A stretch of DNA of 58,738 nucleotides from assembly GCA_013115125.1 (NCBI GenBank), contig JABANN010000162.1:1-58738 (forward strand). The letters run 5' to 3'. The notes below the pieces were generated by a model. It saw only the letters and a list, made by a program, of their open reading frames with translations, did no database searches and had not been told where the DNA came from. This DNA comes from Perkinsus olseni. Its lineage: Eukaryota. This document shows, one piece after another, positions 29,882 to 58,738 of this stretch (position 1 is the first letter of the stretch; each line of letters begins with the position of its first letter). The position numbers and the translations under genes were made by a program.

Positions 29882-32800
29882 ATGTACGTCTTATCGAAGA
29901 CTGTTGTTATAGCGGTCACGTGGCTGCTGCTGTTGATGGTATGTGGAGGGGACGCGGTAAGTAACCGAATAGACATAATGGGGTCAGCGACCATTTCCAC
30001 TGAGTTTCATGTTCTTCCGTATGTCGATAGGGGAGCGACTGTGATGAGATTCTTCACCGCCAGTGAAAATCGGCACGTAAAATCGGCATCGGTTACATAA
30101 AAATATCGTCTATGCTTATCGTCTGACTATTACAATTTCGTGGTGTATTAAAATAGTCGTGTAATGTTCAGTAGAATAATAGTGGTGCTTTTACGTAGTG
30201 CATATCCGAGTAACGGCAACGTAAATAGGTGGTCGGAAAAATCGCGAAAATTGCACCGTCATGAAAAATGGAGTTGCTAGTTAGTGGAGCGTTCAACACA
30301 CTAACTAGACGCTAGCCCTCGCCAGCCCTCTGCTGCCTCGGCTCGCCGGCCTCATCATACTGCCGAGAGCTACTGTGATCTTAACGGCGTACCAGATGTT
30401 AACATCAGACGAGCGAGCTTGTGTGACGGCCGTCTAGACGTTCATGTCTAGGCCAGCGCAGTTTGTTCAGGCGGAAGAAGCAATCGCTGGCGGAGGGTCG
30501 TCACCGGTGAACGACAAGTCGGGGGAACTGGATGGGGGTATCTTGGTCTACAACGACCTTGCCCATCGTGATGTGCTTTGTCGCTACATTCAGAGTAATA
30601 GAGGGCGGTTTTTTCATACGGTAATTTTGGTCGTGTCCAGTCCCGGCGGACGCCAGACGCATCCGAGCCACTGCTGCTGTCATCGGGCTGACCGGCAATC
30701 CTAATTTATTTGCCGGATTTGATGAACAGAAGTTGCGTGATAGAATTTACAAGGAGGCCGCCCCGACCAACCAGGGAGGTTATCATATGATACACGATAC
30801 GTAATGTTGGGGAATTTCGTGGCGCGTGACGGCTCATTGGGGCGGCGGTCATGGCTGCAGGTACTTCGTGCCAAAGTCGTCTGATGGTCGCTTCTATCTC
30901 TGCGTGACGACCTTTGCTACCCAGGGAACTGATTTTGTAAGGAATGCGCAAAAGTGTCGCTGCGGGGGATCGAACCAAGGACCTTTGGGTGACGAGGTCA
31001 GGTGCTTACTGGAGTGGTCTCGAATGCTGCTGAGTTCGGAGTGGAACCTGTGATGCCGCTGCTAATGGAGTACCCTACTGTCCAGAGTGTCGAGGCATTC
31101 GGCCGACACCGGGAGTATCGGGTACTAAGGGATGGACTGTCCCACCGCCTAGCGCGCCGTACACATAGCGCGTATATTGATTCTGGATTGAGAGCTTTCC
31201 ACGTGTGGCCCTACTGAGGGCTCTAGCGCGGGAGGGCTTTTCGTGACTTGGGTGCTGGTGGCGTAATAATTTCAAGAACGGTCGACTAAGAGACTTCGCA
31301 GCGTAGATTAGTATCGTGTCCGGTTGGTGATACGCGTAAGTGTCACACTACTTTGGGCGGTCAGGTGGTTCTGCCCAACGCGCCAGAGACGAGCGACGGC
31401 GCCGTCCCTCCTATCACCATCACAGTAGCACAGATAGTTGGAGAGACCGATCTAATGGTAGTAGTAGAGTTAGTTGCGATTTACGAGTGGAGTGGTATGA
31501 TAGGTGCACGCATGTGGTAGTGAGCAGTCATTGGCCGTGTCCGCTGTTGATGGCCCGGATACGGTGACGATTACGAATGAACAGCTCACCAGTGCTGGAC
31601 TCGGGCCAGGCTCTGAGCTCTGTGTTGTTGTTAAGACTAACAAGCTCTTCGCCAGTGCTTCTACGTAGGAGGGGTTTCGTGGCGCGGTGATGAATTTTGT
31701 GGCGCGGTGACAGGTTCTGGCTGGTGGTTTCGCAGAGTCCACAGGGACCTTTCGTTATGCAGAGCTTGCCGATGTATGCTGTGATACCAGGAAAGGGATC
31801 ACAGCGGGTGAGGAAGTTCCGCACCTATTTCAATAAGGGTAATCCAAAGGTCCCCGGATCGATCCCTGGTGAATGTAGTTTGTAGGTACTGATCTCACAA
31901 TAACTGCCAACCCGGTGTCGGCTAATGCAGTGAAGGAAGCGGCCAATAGACCTGGGGAGATCCAGGTAGTTAGTGGCGCATCTTTTGTTCCGTCTGGTAC
32001 CACCTCAACCTCGTGGAATCATCATGAAATTATTGTATTATCATATGACTTGCAGGATACTGATGGATCTCAGTATAAAAAATGCGTTACCATGTCATAG
32101 CGCGGTCGTGTACCTTGTATCAGCACATGGCGCGTATCTTTTTAGCGTGGACCTCTTTTGTATCTTACTATGATCGACCTTGTTGCTATCTTACTACGAT
32201 GAAATCCGCTGACAGTAGCTCTATTTCAGTCGGGATCCGTACCGCACATCGTAGCGGACACGACGCCCACCGGTCAAACGTGGAAGGACCACGGCGACGG
32301 TCACATCGCCATCGATAAGTCCAGCCTGGACGGCCACGCTGGCCAGGGCGAAATCGTTTACGTATCGGTCACACCACCCAACGATTGGCATGAGAATTCT
32401 GAGATGCCTTTCGAGCTCACAGTGACGACAAGTGAGTCGGGTGGGGAGGTTGTTCGGGTGAATTCAGCGGATCTTCTTTGCTGGTATGACGCCAGGAAAT
32501 GAAAACAACAGCGATGGCAGTTGAGGATATTGAAAATCTTCGTAGTGAGCGCGGTAATTAGACCCAGTTGGAAGAGCTATACAGTTCTAGGGGGAGTATC
32601 TTATGCTACTAAGGTGAAGTGGTTATCGAGACAGTAGTGATGGGAACTGGGAGTATTGAAAATCTTCATAGTTAGCGCAATGGTTAAACCCAGTGGTAAG
32701 AGCTAGGCAGCTCCGTGGGAGGGTATCTTGGTACTCTTGCGATTGATGGGTCAACCTGCGTCGTGTATTGGTCCATGTTCAGGTAGCACGGTCAGAGATC

Positions 32801-35800
32801 TACAGGATGGCAAGCCCACCACTGTGACCATCAGTGACTCGAGAAAGTTCCGGGATTTCCGGTAGTAACGGTCGTGCCGTTTCTGGTTAAGATTACCGTC
32901 AACGTCGCAATTTCGTCGCTGTACGTGATGAGAATTGAGAGTAATAAGCGTGCGGAGTATCCTTTTCGGAATGAGAGCAGTGACCGAAAAGGGCAGGCGC
33001 ATTATGCAGTGTTCGGAGGGGAACTGAAGCACGGATCTTCCGGCATGGATTTGGCAAGCGTCGACTTGCACGCACTACGAATTTTTGTCATCAAATTTTA
33101 TAATGGGCTAAGGGGTGGAGTATCTTTTGGCCGTTTCAGATACTGGGTGCCCAAGCATGCCAGAGTGGTGCTCTCTATAATAGGAGATTCGTCGAAGGAT
33201 GGAAGTGGTCTGGCGATATTCGCGGACACCACCAGATACAGTCACGATCCTCGAGGGTAATCTTGCAATCTTGCGTTTCCTTAACGCTAACTGGCATCTG
33301 CAAGGTATACGTTCAATACGATGGAAGGGTCCAACGAGATTTTCCTTACCAATATGAAGTACTATGCGCAGTCCCATCCTGGCAAGGTAAGGGGGTTTTG
33401 TAATCCCGAATTGGGAGAAATGTGGTATGAAAATGACTTCCAGGTTCAATACGTCAACTGCGATATGGGCTATATTTACCTGACTGTTAAGAGCTGTGCT
33501 GTAGCCAACGGCAAATGTGTTGAGGATGCCTCCGTGCCTTCGACGTTTACGTTGACGGTGTCCAGTGATACCGGTAGTAGTAGCGGGGGTAGAAGATCTG
33601 AGGATCGTGGTGGTGTATGGAGGGGCGCTCGGAATGATGTTAGGAACAGAGCGCAATGGCATGAATTCACTTTTATTCGAGGCGCGCACGTCCCCTAGAT
33701 GGATATGAGCGCATAGTGACTGAAGCGGTGGTAGTGATGTTTCTCATGGGGTATCTTAGGGTCGACTCACGTTCAAGATGGAGTGCCGATCCATGAGAAG
33801 GTTCACATGGCGAAGAAATTTGTTTATACTAATCCTATGTTGGATAAGAAGGTGGAGAAGAAGGAAGTAGAGGAAAGCGCGGGAGAGGTAGTTGAAGATG
33901 TCGGCTCTGGGAGTCGAACCGGGGGCCTTTGGGGGCGCTATAGAAGATGCGACTGATCTACGTAGTTGAAGCAGCTCTGTCTTGATCCGGTTCGTGGTAG
34001 ATGTAGTCAGCTCGTTAGGCGTTGCGATTGTCATTCCTCTTCGTGCAGGGAAGTGGAAGCAGACAATAGTTCACTATGAGAGATGTGGTTCGTCCGGGGA
34101 TCGAACCGGGGACCTTCTGTATTTAGGATAACTCGAAGGATGATGGATCTGACTCTTCCTCGATACACTTCAACGACTTGTTGGTGAAGGCCTCGGTGAA
34201 TAGCGGCAGAGGGTCGCTGATGCTGAGCAATGACGAGAACTTCGCAACTAGTAGGTGCCAGCGGCTGGGTTTGAACCCGGGTTGTCATGCGGTTCGTCTT
34301 AGGCACGCAAGCAGTATTCTGCGGCTATGATGACGCTGGCGATACGAAGGCTGACGGCGGGAACATCTGCACCTTCGTTGTCAAGAAGGACGATCCAATT
34401 CGGAGCAGCAAATATATCTACGCAAAACTGGTACGAGGCGCAACCGCGATGATATTTGTGCGGGGTATCTTGGTTGTTACTTTGGTCGGATGCTCGCGCA
34501 AAGATATTTCTACGAGATGTTTTCTCAGTGGGGAATCAGAGATGAATTCTTCTGAGGTTTTGCTCTTCGTCTCAGATACCGGACCTTACGGATGGTACGG
34601 GTACTGCGTTGCTGGACTTTGACTTTTTGATGGCTGATGTTGGTGGAGAAATTGTGATGAAAAATCATCAGCCGGTTAATGACGCTATGTCGGCTGGGGG
34701 CAGTCGGAAGTATAAGATTTTTATACCTGCGTCTACATCGAGGTGAGTATCTTAGGTTGAAGCTGGCAAGATACAGAGTGGGTCAAGATGATTTGAGTGG
34801 TGCTTTCTCAGTTCTTCTAACACTCCTTCGCCCGTTTCTGCGATGTTTGACGTGTCTAAGACTACTGGTACGGTGGAGTTCGACATTTGCGATGCCGCTG
34901 AGTAAGTTGAAACGCTCTCCCTGGGGTTCGATCCAGGGTTGCTCGCATGTGGTACCGGCTATATGTCTGATTCAGGAATTGCAAGACTATCAAGGGTGAT
35001 GGTTCAGCACAATTGGAGGAGAACACCAGCAAGGGGAATGTTGCCGGCAAGTGGATTCATGTAAGCAGTCTCCGTGCGACGATCCATCTTGATGTCCGCT
35101 GTTTTTGCCGGGCAAGTCGTCCGCGGCCCACTGATCCTTTGATCGATGGTTTCGGCGTTGTTCCGATCGTGTAGCTCGGCCAAGCACTTCTCAGTTCGGG
35201 CTAAGGACCGATTCTGACGGACTTAGTGGTACCGATGTCTTCCGGGTATTTTCATGAATCATCTTGTGGAATGCAGAAAGGCTGCATTGATTCAGCTGGC
35301 AGGTGCATGCTAAGTGTGAGGACAAGTGCTCGTACCGGATCACTGGAGCCTTCTTCCTCAAGTCCAACTCGTTGAGACTGAACTATAGGCCCATGACAGT
35401 CCCACTGGATGGCGGCAGCTTCAAGGACTGTAATGACTCGGGTTCGACCCCTGCAGTCGACGATCATTCGGAATCCTTTCAGGGATGGTTGGGTATAAGG
35501 ACACCGATCACTGGCTTCTCCATACAGAGGTCCGAGGGCAGGAGGCCGATGCTGTTAAGACTTGTATTAAGGACCAATGTTGTAATATAACCGGAAGTAT
35601 TCAAGTCATTTTACTGACACTTCTAGCTGTCTTGTGGGCGTTATGGCCGATTTCACTCGGCACTTGTACATCATCGACTAGTCTTTCCTGTTCGATAGGT
35701 ACGGCCGGGACATGCACCCTCTACGGCTTTGGAAAGGAGATCGCCAAACTGGAGAACTTGAAGAGCGACACGATCACCTACGTCCAGCTGTACTATGCTC

Positions 35801-38800
35801 TTGTGTGCCTTGCGATGTTCGGATATGCTCTCGGCAGGTGGGCTACGAAGTTGAGCTTCCCGGCGATGGACGAGTGGCTGGATGTTACCAAAAGGGGCAG
35901 CAATATCTACAGGCTGAATACCAACTCATTGGTGTCATTTGACGCTGAGAAATCCAGCACGGTAAGAGCGGTGGGGAGAGGTGGGCGTATCTTTATGTTG
36001 AAGCGTGTAGTTCGTGGAATCGAGGATGCGATCACTGGCGCTATTGGCACGTGCGGCCCAGGTTAGCTCTTTTCTTGTAGCTTTTCGAATGGCAGTGGCA
36101 TGAACAGAATTGCTCGCCGAAGTGGGGCGGGCTGTCCGAGGCTTGATTCATCTTTTTCTGTGTTGCAGTTCAGCACTGGAGCGAAGGTGTCAGTATCGGA
36201 TTCTCTGTTCGGAGATTACCAACCACTGAGCGGCGAGAATCTGATCGACTGCACCGGCAATAAAATGAAGTTTGTGAAGGTGGGTGGACCTACGCATTCT
36301 GGCGTAGTGGTTATGATGTGTGTAGGTTGATGGGACGTCCCGGGTTCGAATCCATGCGCCGTTAAATCTTCAAGTCGGCGAGTGGGCGTATAACCCTCAC
36401 TGGGTTATGTGGGGTGGCAGCTCCCTCAAGCAGAACGTCCACGTGGAAAGCTGCAACCTCGAGCCGGCTGATGTGCTGGTCAATGGTGATACGCGGAAGG
36501 AGATTCACTCCGACTGGACTGGGGGCGTCTGACAGGCACGGCTGTTGATATGTCGTCTGCCCATAATTACGCCGCGAATGATGCCAACTCGCTGCTGCTA
36601 ACGGCCGGCGACGCAACAGTAGCTTACCGAGTGGGGCTGTTCAATCAGGTTGGTCAGCATGGAGGATATCTTCGAAGGAGCAGTTGTTATTGTTGTTATC
36701 CAGGTCCCCATCCCACTAACGGTACACTCTAGTCGGCAGAGTCTGGAATTCATCGCGCCGCCTAATGCCCAGAACAGCCTGTAAGCTCGGGCCTCGAGTC
36801 GTTGGTCGCTGTATCAAAGCTAAGGTGGAGATTGATTAGAATTAGGATTTGCTTCGTGGATGGAATGTTGAATCCGGCGCAATTCGGTCTATACTCTGTC
36901 GCTAAATCTGGCTGAGCCAGTCGATTGTTGTCGAAAAACTGGCTCTATTTTGGAAGCCGAAGGCCTTCAGTCAGCTACAGACTTCAGTCAGACATCACAT
37001 TCCGTATGTCAGTGGATTTGATGTGTATTCAAAATGAGTCGTCCATGGCAAACCCCTTTCTATAATGGTTAAAAAATGCCTGGAAGCGCACGGCGTACGA
37101 ACCGGATGGCCGTTTATGGCGATAGATTCTCCTCTCTCATCCGCCATTCCCAAGCCTCATCGCTTCGAGCCTGCTGGGAGTGATTGTAAGTTCAGTTCAG
37201 TTGTGAGTTCTAGGGCGCGACTCTCTTTCGAGTCTCTCCCGACTTCCGTACTGAGAGTCCGTATCAGTACAGCAGGCCTTCAATTCTTCGTGCAGTGCAC
37301 TCGTCACAGAGAATTGAGGGCGTTGTCGTACGCCGACAATGAGGATAACCTTCGATCGAATCACCGGGCAGCTAATCGCCTTCGGGCGAGCGTGCGCACG
37401 CGTGCGTCGAGCGTAATTTATCAGAGGAGTTGGGAACACTCAAATTAAGGAGTGGTAATAAATGGAGGCTAGTGAATGGACATGAGGACCTACGAAGATC
37501 GGCTCAGCGGTACCTCGGCCGTGGGGACGTCCCAGGGTATTGCGGCGGGACTCAGTCTGGGTTGATACGGTCGTGTTCTGTAGTTGCCCGGAAACCTGTC
37601 GCATTAAGGTGTTGCACTAGGGTCCTGGGTATGGCTGAGGATGCCGCCATCCGAGACGATGTATCTATCCCTCGCATACGGAACTCCCTGGCTGGCATAC
37701 GAATTATCGGTATGATCACTGACCCTTACGCCAAGTGAAACGCCTGATCGTTCGATGTAGAGAGAGTAGCGCCTACATCCTCGCTGATGCAGACGTTGTT
37801 CGGACCGTATAGCTATGCCTGAGCCTCCACCCTCGGAAGGTCAAGTCCCGAGCTGAGCCTCTCACCTAAGGAGCTCGAGGAGCTCTACTCTCAACATTCG
37901 AGTCTCTCGTCCAAGGAGCTTGGCTGCACGAACCTCGGTGAATTCGACTTCGAGACACTCTCAGAAGAGCCGGTCTACATTAGACCATTTAGGCTTAATC
38001 CTAAGAAGACCCAAAAGGTCGAAGCACTACTGAGAGACTTTGAAAAGCAAGGGTTCATTGAACCCGCGAAGTCGGACTACTCATCTCCAGGGTTTGTCAT
38101 CTCCAAGAAGGACGGCTCAAATCGGTTAGTCATCGACTACCGGGCGCTGAACAAGCGCACAAAGAGGGATCGGTATATAGGGCCAGCCGTAGATCAGATC
38201 ATCACGGGGCTGAGCGAGGCAAGATGCTTCAGCAGCATAGACTTGAAGCATGGGTTCCACCAGATTAAGGTATCCGCCTCGGCAAAAAGGAAGCTAGCGT
38301 TCTCGGTCGGTGGTCGGCAATATACATGGGCTCGTATGAGCATGGGACACTGTAATTCTCCCAGCTGCTTTCAAAGGATCATCGATAAGGCCCTAGGCCC
38401 GCTCGTCGGGTTATGTTGCTATGTGTATCTCGACGACGTTATCGTCTTCTCGAGAGACCACTCCTCTCATATGCGAAGTCAGAGATTTGATCACGTCGTT
38501 GAAGAATGAATGGATATCGGGCTTCGTGGACATCAGACTGGGCGGAATGCCATACGTAAAGAGCGGCCATCACGCCACCGCCTACGGCATGGCGCGCATG
38601 ATCACGCGTGATGCCGGGGCTTTTATTACCAGTCTAGCATCAATTTCATTGGGTTTTCGATACGGATCTGGCCCGTCGTGACAAGTTTGTAGCAGACTGT
38701 CCCGACAAGGAGTTATTCGCTTGGTTCAAGAGACTGATGTCGAACCAGGGACCATAGTGTCCCCAGGATTCGCCAAGGATAGAGGCCGACTTAATTCTAA

Positions 38801-40121
38801 GCCTCTCTCAGTGCAGCATGAAGCTAGCACGCCTCAAGACAATTAACGAATCGGCCTAATCGTCGTAGCATCGGCAGTGTAGTTCTATACTAAGGGTGAT
38901 GCAACGATTGAGACTTAATGAGTGTGCGGTGTGGGGGGTTTTCTGATCATTGACTGACGATAGGATCGCGAAAATCGGAGTAATTTACCTCCTATACGCG
39001 GGTAGCGAATTTCCTGGTAACTTTCCGCTCAGCGGCGGGCGCGGCCGCAGAGCAAGTCATCGCTTTTGCGTCAGGTACCGAGTCATCTGCAGTTCCAAGT
39101 ATTCCTCAGCAAGCTCCTGTGCGTTGGAGCTGTCGGAATCGACTCTCCACTCAGCATGGACCGGTTGTAAAGGAGATCGAAGGTGCTCCATTACTGTGCC
39201 CTCCGAATGTAAGCATTGTCACTGTTGGGAATCGAACCCGCCTTCTCTTCAATCTGGGCTCGTCCATGCCGACCGGACTCTGCCGAAGATGGATTGATGA
39301 TTAGCGATTGGTGCCACTGATAGAAGGGAACTCCTTCACAGGTCTCGCCGAAGGCTCCCGATTGAGCGTGGAAGCCCGCAAGGGTCCGATCTACGGCCTC
39401 TTCCACCCAGCCACTATGACTGGAGCGGGAGTCGCTGATAGCGGAGCAGCAGCAGAAGGCAAGGATGGCTTGGGAGTAGTAGAGGAGCTTCCCACAGGTA
39501 AGTAGCGCTCGCCCGATTGATCGATTATCCTATGATGATCAGGGAAACGATGGAGCTGGACCTCTCTCTTCCTCCTTTCGGCCTTGGCGTACATGGTTGT
39601 TCGGTGTATCTACAACATGCATGTGTATGGGGCCTCTGGGTTGGAAGCCGTACCGCATATCGACACAATGCGCCGTGCGATGTTCAATCTCCAGCACCTA
39701 AGGTAGGGAAGAGATCGAGCGAGGTCTAGCGTCCGCGTGCGGTTTGTGTCTTCGTTGGTGGCGAGGTCAGTGGGCGAACTGATGTTCTGTGCGGTCGCTA
39801 GAGGTGGTCGCTGCCGCTATAGTTTGATATAATGATCATGTATCAACAACAAGGGTATGGACACTGCATGCTCTCATGCAGTGTATTGAATGAATTTAAG
39901 GACTTGGTGTATCGCAGGAGTGTGAACTTGTTTCGGGACCACCGCTTCTTTTGTGCGTGCAAATTTTGTTTGGTATAAAGTGCGTGTTTGTGTGTTGGCA
40001 AAGGCAAACAAACGCTCGCATTTCCTTTCATGTCGTAGTTTTTCCGATTTTGTATGACGAATTTATACGCACAACAGGTTAACTGAGACCGTAGGCATCC
40101 TTTCTACGTGCAATTGTGGTG

Positions 40122-40170
<49 letters not shown>

Positions 40171-40430
40171 GCTCTCTCCATATGCTGAGGGCTCTGATTG
40201 AGTACTTGTCACAATTTGTTGTTCGCAGGTGGTCGAGGAAGTTCTGGCATTCGGACAGTAGTACTCACATGATGGAGTTGGGCACGGAGATGGACTACCA
40301 TGACATCGAGAGCAATCGTGACCATGGCACCACCAACACAGGCGGTTATCGGCGTCATGATGTTGGCCAGCAATTAACGAGCAGGCCCAATTCGACCTAC
40401 GCTCCGCTACGTTACGAAGAATCTTTGTAG
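29882..40430 (+). CDS. Large multi-exon type-I membrane, receptor-like protein
   Basis: Signal peptide exon MYVLSKTVVIAVTWLLLLMVCGGDA; many short in-phase exons (YFVPKSSDGRFYLCV, YWVPKHARVVL, QYVNCDMGYIYLTV); late TM WSWTSLFLLSALAYMVVRC followed by YNMHVYGASGLEAVPHIDT; tail ends TYAPLRYEESL*. The join across 36.9-39.0 kb is inferred. Confidence 0.6.
32526..32729. repeat. Diverged direct repeat (two ~77 nt copies, period ~126 nt) in an intron
   Basis: TATTGAAAATCTTC...ACCCAGT...AAGAGCTA...GTATCTT occurs at 32526-32602 and 32651-32729. Confidence 0.8.
37824..38473 (+). mobile_element. Ty3/Gypsy LTR retrotransposon reverse transcriptase fragment, 3'-truncated
   Basis: PVYIRPFRL, GFIEPAKSDYSSP, KKDGSNRLVIDYRALN, FSSIDLKHGFHQI, MGHCNSPSCFQR and YVYLDDVIVFS; homology stops just after YLDD. 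Confidence 0.92.
40122..40171. repeat. (TTG)n microsatellite, intronic
   Basis: About 16 perfect TTG units. Confidence 0.97.
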
Positions 40431-58669: not shown

Positions 58670-58738
58670 GCCCGATTAGTTCAGCTGGATAGAATGTCTG
58701 CCTACGGAGCAGATGGTCGTAGGTTCGAATCCTGCATC
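58670..58738 (+). tRNA. tRNA-Arg(ACG), last few nt cut by the window end
   Basis: Acceptor 5' strand GCCCGAT, D-arm GTTC-AGCTGGATA-GAAT, anticodon arm TCTGC-CTACGGA-GCAGA, T-arm GTAGG-TTCGAAT-CCTGC, then ATC pairing with the acceptor. Confidence 0.92.

What the first reader, a model, noticed from the sequence alone, without database searches (positions are those of the whole stretch)
36293..36360. Full-length tRNA-like unit straddling a 3' splice site: A-box in the intron, B-box in coding sequence
Seen: a consensus A-box TGGCGTAGTGG (36300-36310) and B-box GGTTCGAATCC (36343-36353) at tRNA-like spacing (44 nt). The predicted intron 36280-36325 ends between them, and the B-box half reads in frame as VDGTSRVRIHAPLNLQ, which splices in phase to SLKQNVHVESC. 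Inference: either an exonised tRNA relic or a Pol III promoter co-encoded with protein, which would imply selection on the boxes rather than passive insertion.
Basis: partly seen in the sequence, partly recalled or inferred. Interest (0 to 1): 0.75.

Follow-up and report, generated by a model that had tools for sequence, protein, structure and literature searches.

The report
tRNA promoter boxes straddling splice junction
In an expressed gene of the shellfish parasite Perkinsus, the two DNA boxes that mark tRNA genes lie on either side of a real splice junction, one in the intron and one written into protein-coding codons; this is likely one member of a genome-wide set of such sites kept by selection and predicted to bind the tRNA transcription factor, not a working tRNA.

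Summary
Boxes and junction are real. A-box 36300 and B-box 36343 lie 43 nt apart, as in tRNA genes. Intron 36280-36325 is spliced in RNA contigs of 3 of 4 runs. Two corrections: there is no foldable tRNA, and no splice before SLKQ (exon 36326-36485). The host is Perkinsus olseni. The B-box belongs to a genome-wide class of tRNA-3'-like extended boxes (2503 vs 400 control), 62 of 72 in predicted introns, on both strands. The scan noted this class before on other DNA of this genome. Seen here: 5 of 5 intronic boxes of this gene visible in a P. marinus-like relative are kept while flanks diverge, which points to selection. The coding box uses near-optimal codons (1 in 200,000 recodings). The peptide aligns without insertion to 15 distant homologues, against simple exonisation. 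Resemblance to tRNA-Pro(AGG) is only suggestive (P 0.04-0.21). Untested: ortholog DNA at this site, TFIIIC binding. Best reading: a selected TFIIIC-type site co-encoded with protein (0.55).

The parts
36280..36325 (+). 46-nt GT..AG spliceosomal intron (25th of 31, phase 0) that holds the A-box
   Evidence: joint in contigs of 3 of 4 runs; spliced alignment to orthologs
36300..36310 (+). consensus A-box TGGCGTAGTGG, 26 nt before the exon start
   Evidence: sequence; strict pattern rate 1.2e-5 per intron base; 0 of 1646 predicted junctions carry even a loose A-box at this offset +-1
36311..36336 (+). spacer across the acceptor; best match is tRNA-Pro(AGG), with TAG|G within 1 nt of the anticodon position; suggestive only
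   Evidence: alignment; P 0.035-0.21 over 3 gap settings and 3 nulls; 0.09-0.38 with one sequence per isotype
36326..36485 (+). coding exon 26 (53 codons, begins VDGTSRVRIHAP), continuous
   Evidence: RNA contigs; 96% and 94% identity to P. chesapeaki and P. marinus
36335..36353 (+). extended B-box (upstream extension 36335-36342, core 36343-36353) written in codons T-S-R-V-R-I-H; 26.4 bits on a matrix trained without it
29882..40430 (+). host gene: 32 exons, 1299 aa, predicted type I membrane protein; its orthologs' only good Pfam hit is the transmembrane part of ATG27 (PF09451)
   Evidence: RNA covers 33134-36783
30966..30976 (-). class B-box in intron 4 (35.3 bits, in training set)
31856..31866 (+). 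class box in intron 8; 10 read-through codons identical in the relative (P0022)
33910..33920 (-). class B-box near the donor of intron 15, kept in the relative (P0021)
34097..34107 (-). class B-box near the acceptor of intron 15, kept in the relative (P0021)
34267..34277 (-). class box in intron 16 (20.7 bits)
34924..34934 (-). class box in intron 19 (19.3 bits)
35441..35451 (+). class B-box in intron 21, kept at the same distance from the donor in the relative (P0023)
39228..39238 (-). class B-box in intron 29, kept in the relative (P0019)

Best explanation
The A-box in the intron and the B-box in the codons of the next exon are likely one selected DNA site of the extra-TFIIIC type, predicted to bind TFIIIC on the gene body rather than to make a tRNA, and it belongs to a genome-wide class of tRNA-like boxes that lie near intron ends in Perkinsus. 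Shown: the junction is spliced, the exon is conserved protein, the class exists, and sister boxes in this gene are kept in a relative. Inferred: the class began as scattered tRNA-gene copies of several isotypes whose stems decayed while the boxes were kept. At this junction the box was likely built or maintained inside an old coding segment through synonymous and tolerated changes, so DNA site and protein share the same letters. Inferred and untested: bound TFIIIC acts as a chromatin anchor or a brake on RNA polymerase II near splice sites of this 31-intron gene.
For: Class: 2503 strict B-boxes vs 400 control; shared extension on both sides without stem pairing; leave-one-out scores split into 10 negative and 45 positive of 55. 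Membership: flanks alone score +10.1 bits, background 2e-4. Codons: P=5e-6 given the peptide; the whole 1299-codon gene recoded reached 26.4 bits in 0 of 1500 tries. Context: 9 sites in this 10.5-kb gene (8 at >=20 bits) against 14 per 350 kb in loci not picked for boxes. The box centre is 22-23 nt from the junction; class median to the nearest intron end is 24 nt. Selection on the class: 5 of 5 intronic boxes visible in P. marinus-like fragments are kept in place and orientation. DNA-level role: 35 sense vs 27 antisense (P=0.37). TFIIIC: Tau95 match 42 bits, E 3e-9, 0 of 14 controls. The only box-region residue that differs from both other species (A to T) puts the consensus A at position -8.
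Against: No ortholog DNA for this site: its synonymous positions and the A-box are untested across species (searches found nothing). No occupancy data. Coding DNA makes such boxes by chance: 1.1 at >=20 bits and 0.25 at >=26.4 bits per 248 kb recoded, about 75 and 16 genome-wide by my scaling. The A-box and the gene context therefore carry the case; under the loosest criteria about 0.5 chance A+B pairs are expected. The class avoids exons (6 of 68 genic sites). The 3' part of the class motif is barely matched here (+0.5 bit). The B-block subunit match is borderline (21.5 bits; the control rings in 7 of 14). The species of the conserved fragments is inferred from exon identity (91-100% to P. 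marinus), not named, and conservation was read through translations.
Confidence: 0.55

Rival explanations
1. Coincidence: an ordinary beta-strand-like peptide happens to be written with codons that spell a B-box, and a chance A-box lies in the intron.
For: About 16 (>=26.4 bits) to 75 (>=20 bits) chance coding boxes genome-wide, scaled. The peptide is ancestral in register and no more diverged from the family than neighbouring 17-residue windows. Loose A-boxes are at chance level in the window (10 vs 11).
Against: Needs a strict A-box at the tRNA offset as well: joint expectation about 4e-4 (tight) to 0.03 (moderate) genome-wide from the rates. It also needs to fall in a gene with 8 other sites.
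Confidence: 0.17
2. A whole tRNA-Pro(AGG) gene copy once filled a ~95-nt intron (36280-36374); a new acceptor at the anticodon TAG|G exonised its 3' half, which replaced about 16 ancestral codons.
For: Best match among 44 tRNA spacers (25 isotype labels) is Pro(AGG) under all three gap settings. Of 9 other non-tRNA A+B units, 6 lie wholly in introns (1 verified by homologues; 5 predicted), several of 80-100 nt with similar flanks. An AG lies 21 nt behind the box (sequence).
Against: Spacer likeness P 0.035-0.38, weaker than in 5 of 6 other units scored (2 vs 5-8). 49 nt is not a whole number of codons. No extra residues against 15 homologues. The peptide scores 2.5 and 6.7 bits on the family profile, above all 72 class elements read in register (max -2.5).
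Confidence: 0.13
3. An active type 2 Pol III promoter that transcribes a non-tRNA small RNA across the junction and interferes with the host gene.
For: Both boxes at the right spacing. The lack of a near terminator (first TTTT at 36948) is not decisive, since only 9 of 41 genuine tRNA copies have TTTT within 40 nt. Precedent: an intronic MIR in Polr3e (PMC5358760, abstract only).
Against: No stable fold. Most class members have no A-box, so the class does not look built for transcription. Contigs show no separate RNA, but they cannot show one.
Confidence: 0.1
4. An RNA-level signal: the T-loop mimic acts in the pre-mRNA or mRNA (splicing aid or target of tRNA-modifying enzymes; recalled, not checked).
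For: It is in sense orientation here and stays in the mature mRNA. The intron has the lowest folding energy per base of 16 short introns of the gene.
Against: 27 of 62 intronic class members are antisense; T-stem pairs only 3 of 5; the intron hairpin is not better than shuffles (z=-1.1).
Confidence: 0.05

Closest known systems
Extra-TFIIIC (ETC) sites; closest the C. elegans sites on CeRep3 tRNA-pseudogene repeats (PMC6950938, passages read; solo B-boxes in PMC5391098, passages read)
   Same: tRNA-like A/B boxes without a tRNA, dispersed, enriched in introns and depleted in exons
   Different: Occupancy not shown here. Most Perkinsus members keep only an extended B-box, sit about 24 nt from an intron end and are kept between species. 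This member is split by a splice junction with its B-box in conserved codons, which my searches did not find described.
Conserved intronic MIR of mammalian Polr3e (PMC5358760, abstract and outline only)
   Same: Pol III-type element nested in a Pol II gene and conserved
   Different: That element is wholly intronic, antisense and shown to be transcribed; here it is sense, half coding and untested.
tRNA gene / tRNA pseudogene, nearest tRNA-Pro(AGG) of this genome
   Same: A- and B-box, spacing, TATGAT behind the A-box, GTCCCGGGTTC before the T-loop
   Different: Acceptor, anticodon and T stems do not pair; spacer likeness not significant.
Exonised tRNA-derived SINE (recalled)
   Same: tRNA-like sequence overlapping an exon start
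   Different: No second copy of the 371-nt region at E<=0.001, no added residues, no tail or target-site duplication seen by eye.

Membership tests
tRNA gene | A-box and B-box at tRNA spacing | tested here: met
   43 nt start to start; genuine genes 43-45
tRNA gene | cloverleaf stems | tested here: not met
   acceptor 3/7, T 3/5, anticodon 3/5 in best register; ARAGORN 0; Rfam none at E<=10
tRNA gene | T-run terminator close behind | tested here: inconclusive
   first TTTT ~600 nt away, but only 9 of 41 genuine copies have one within 40 nt
ETC (extra-TFIIIC) site | consensus B-box outside a tRNA gene | tested here: met
ETC (extra-TFIIIC) site | TFIIIC bound, Pol III absent | not testable with these tools
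   no occupancy data
ETC (extra-TFIIIC) site | genome encodes TFIIIC | tested here: inconclusive
   Tau95 clear; B-block subunit borderline
ETC (extra-TFIIIC) site | box conserved between species | tested here: inconclusive
   met for 5 of 5 visible intronic sister boxes; this site's DNA not obtained; its peptide is compatible
Exonised tRNA/SINE relic | adds lineage-specific residues to the protein | tested here: not met
   colinear with 15 distant homologues; profile score above all 72 class translations
Exonised tRNA/SINE relic | traceable source gene beyond the boxes | tested here: inconclusive
   Pro(AGG) best, P 0.035-0.38
tRNA-derived SINE family | multi-copy shared body | tested here: not met
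   one match (self) for 36170-36540 in G000 (that search skips very common words); class members share only the box motif
Perkinsus intronic tRNA-3'-like box class | extended motif around the B-box | tested here: met
   +10.1 bits outside the core, upstream +8.9, downstream +0.5
Perkinsus intronic tRNA-3'-like box class | lies inside an intron | tested here: not met
   B-box is exonic; 62 of 72 sampled members are intronic

The most novel reading that the evidence does not exclude
Perkinsus uses thousands of selected TFIIIC sites set about 24 nt from splice junctions to organise or pace transcription of its intron-dense genes, and the constraint is strong enough that at this junction a complete A+B site has been written half into an intron and half into conserved codons: a Pol III-factor code overlaid on the protein code.
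Probability: 0.2. Interest if true: 0.82.

Novelty: new variant of a known kind. Interest (0 to 1): 0.52.

Why it matters
If true, a general transcription factor site constrains codon choice in a conserved exon. It would also make the roughly 1,600-2,000 tRNA-like boxes in Perkinsus introns selected elements rather than debris, as several earlier notes of this scan read them. This site is a clean test case: four synonymous positions and an 11-nt intronic box either are or are not kept in the public genomes of two sister species. It bears on what extra-TFIIIC sites do inside gene bodies.

Tried and rejected
A second straddling case: the A+B unit on C125 looked the same by eye, but homologues show it wholly inside a 90-nt intron of a Sec1-family gene; rejected. 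A 39-nt intron before SLKQ: rejected by RNA. tRNA-Pro(AGG) origin: attractive in the first alignment, not significant on test. Protein remodelling towards the box: Perkinsus differs at 5 of 8 family-conserved columns in 840-869 against 106 of 308 overall, but the window's profile gap is typical of the domain; rejected. Missing terminator as evidence against Pol III: rejected. Ortholog DNA: metagenome scans with exon 26 and with a distant homologue found nothing; an antisense ORF over the unit found no protein. A general A-box in the class: only a slight rise at offsets -44/-43 (mean 3.8 and 3.6 matches against about 3.3). Of 6 predicted exonic sites in the sample, 2 have the acceptor AG inside the motif (shuffled junctions mean 0.18, max 2). 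One of these two exons has a weak Pfam hit (E 0.0015) and the other none; the 4 antisense ones are unverified and may be missed introns. One search used a wrong gap (0 hits) and was corrected. No structure model was obtained, so the strand assignment of the peptide is untested. Two further degenerate A+B units (C1869, C2710) were not examined.

Full report
Observation. Both boxes are at the stated places, 43 nt start to start, as in genuine tRNA genes of this genome. Four RNA-type runs of the 23 listed were laid on 33000-37000. Contigs of three skip 36280-36325, and the fourth has a loose end that reads the upstream exon; all four cover 36326-36485 as one exon and skip 36486-36535. The unit is not a tRNA: ARAGORN 0 genes, no Rfam match at E<=10, fold no better than shuffles, acceptor stem 3 of 7 and T-stem 3 of 5.

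Host gene. Homologues are Perkinsus proteins, and a second gene of this genome is identical over its exons to a P. olseni protein. Spliced alignment and RNA give 32 exons from 29882 to 40430, 1299 residues with no internal stop. It is a predicted membrane protein of unknown family; the orthologs' only good Pfam hit is the ATG27 transmembrane part. Exon 26 is 96% and 94% identical in two sister species, so the invariance of SRVRIH says nothing by itself. Fifteen distant homologues (about 35% identity, unnamed) align through the segment without extra residues in Perkinsus. On their profile the peptide scores 2.5 (window) and 6.7 (P. marinus) bits. That is above random (P 6e-4) and above all 72 class elements read in that frame, but below 13 of 15 family members; the gap is usual for this domain. 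The alignment was built with Perkinsus in it, which favours a match. The peptide therefore looks ancestral, not inserted.

The class. The window has 9 strict B-boxes against 0.5 expected, and the genome 2503 against 400 in the reversed control. Those outside tRNA genes share an extension that mimics the variable loop before the box and the tRNA end with a T-run after it, with free letters between. A matrix from 55 such sites was used throughout. It was made from 72 orphan rows and 5 rows wrongly called tRNA, after dropping mirror matches, a tandem array, this site and three other A+B units. I built a self-trained gene finder, seeded on two genes including the host; it recovers 99% of host exon bases and 27 of 31 introns exactly. 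On 60 loci (598 kb) it places 72 non-tRNA sites of >=20 bits: 62 in introns (35 sense, 27 antisense), 6 in predicted exons, 4 between genes; the reversed motif finds 0. Twenty-five of these loci were picked from box-rich contigs and overlap the training set; the other 35 hold 14 sites, about 1,600 genome-wide. The median distance to the nearest intron end is 24 nt. Best tRNA matches of members span several isotypes. Earlier notes of this scan describe this class on other contigs, mostly as relics.

Selection on the class. The protein library held ORFs called on genomic contigs of a relative; their exon parts are 91-100% identical to P. marinus and their source is unnamed. They read on into introns of this gene. 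Five box sites are visible and all five are kept in orientation: 10 identical codons in intron 8, G-S-x-P at the same distance from the donor in intron 21, both minus-strand boxes of intron 15 although the intron is about 60 nt shorter, and six identical codons in intron 29. The six visible box-free intron ends show little or no likeness; short matches occur in introns 7 and 24 (by eye). This is indirect, since it is read through translation, but it is hard to square with neutral decay.

Is this site a member? Its flanks score +10.1 bits outside the core (background 2e-4), nearly all upstream. Recoding the peptide with the gene's codon usage reaches its 26.4 bits in 1 of 200,000 tries; the core alone has P=0.008, so about 6e-4 remains after allowing for how the site was found. 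It lies in a gene with 8 other sites, 22-23 nt from the junction. Against this, recoded coding DNA yields 0.25 sites of that score and 1.1 of >=20 bits per 248 kb, about 16 and 75 genome-wide by my scaling. The A-box must therefore be counted. With intron rates of 1.2e-5 (strict) and 1.7e-4 (loose) per base and two offsets, I expect 4e-4 to 0.03 chance pairs genome-wide, and about 0.5 if any loose A-box at any of 26 offsets is allowed. Of 76 strict A+B pairs, 71 are tRNA genes by eye and 5 are not; two looser patterns gave more. Of 9 other non-tRNA units examined, 6 are intronic (1 verified, 5 predicted), 2 intergenic, and 1 overlaps a predicted exon border on the opposite strand. This is the only one seen with the A-box in the intron and the B-box in a confirmed exon.

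Origin. The closest tRNA gene is Pro(AGG): TATGAT behind the A-box, TAGG within one base of the anticodon position at the acceptor, and GTCCCGGGTTC. Tested on the 26-nt spacer against shuffles and real junctions, P is 0.035-0.21 with all 44 spacers and 0.09-0.38 with one per isotype. It remains a lead. A replacement of about 16 codons by the 3' half of such a copy is not excluded, but it needs a compensating loss and a frame repair.

Mechanism. Most likely TFIIIC binds the two boxes on the DNA (inferred). A Tau95 gene fragment is present; the B-block subunit is borderline. Both orientations in the class point to DNA rather than RNA action. What the bound factor does (chromatin anchor, brake on polymerase II near splice sites) is conjecture. 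Pol III transcription is not excluded: the missing T-run is also missing behind 32 of 41 genuine tRNA copies.

Comparison. It works like an extra-TFIIIC site. In C. elegans these carry both boxes, often on CeRep3 tRNA-pseudogene repeats, are enriched in introns and depleted in exons (PMC6950938, passages). Solo B-boxes bind TFIIIC without Pol III (PMC5391098, passages). An intronic conserved Pol III element affects its host gene in mammals (PMC5358760, abstract). Membership is not proven, because occupancy could not be tested. Searches for Perkinsus with B-box, TFIIIC, SINE, introner or tRNA-gene terms and for TFIIIC boxes in coding sequence showed no description in their listings. The library lacks most subscription papers, no Perkinsus nuclear genome paper came up, and no supplements were read.

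Verdict. Real, probably not chance (about 0.8), not a tRNA, probably not a simple exonisation. Best reading: a selected TFIIIC-type site co-encoded with protein (0.55). Interest 0.52: the class is already known to the scan, the straddling layout and the cross-species retention of sister boxes add to it, and the decisive ortholog DNA test is still open.

Noticed in passing
window 36782-39075: The 2.3-kb intron 28 of the host gene holds a reverse-transcriptase-like reading frame (about 37900-38460, recognised by eye as Gypsy-type); RNA contigs still join across from 36783.
   Followed up: no
window 58670-58738: tRNA-Arg(ACG) cut by the contig end (Rfam 49.4 bits); many identical copies elsewhere.
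   Followed up: partly
window 30530-34760: A motif like GGRGTATCTT recurs in the host gene, mostly in introns (about 8 times by eye); not counted or tested.
   Followed up: no
window 2221(-), 9362(+), 10311(-), 28797(+), 29240(+): Five more class boxes of 21-33 bits outside the host gene, most followed by a T-run.
   Followed up: partly
L063 (C125), 90-nt intron of a Sec1-family gene: A full A+B unit, best match tRNA-Glu(CTC), begins at the donor and fills most of the intron.
   Followed up: yes
L090:8782-8908(-) and L066:8561-8730(-): The class motif supplies the predicted acceptor AG and its B-box runs into the exon (Vps16-like by recall; weak Mcl1 hit); 2 seen vs 0.18 in shuffled junctions.
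   Followed up: partly
L084 (C22:1-7606): Ten class sites in 7.6 kb, nearly all in introns of one predicted gene: strong clustering.
   Followed up: no
tRNA loci L015-L126: Only 9 of 41 genuine tRNA gene copies have TTTT within 40 nt downstream, while 20 of 55 orphan boxes do; Pol III termination may be unusual here.
   Followed up: no
window 33599-33723: A separate transcribed repeat inside intron 14 is matched by divergent contigs in three runs.
   Followed up: no
window 36287-36328: The intron folds into a hairpin that covers the acceptor; lowest energy per base of 16 short introns, z only -1.1.
   Followed up: partly
L055 (C1315:19740-22803): Tandem array of tRNA-Ser copies alternating with palindromic B-box units.
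   Followed up: no
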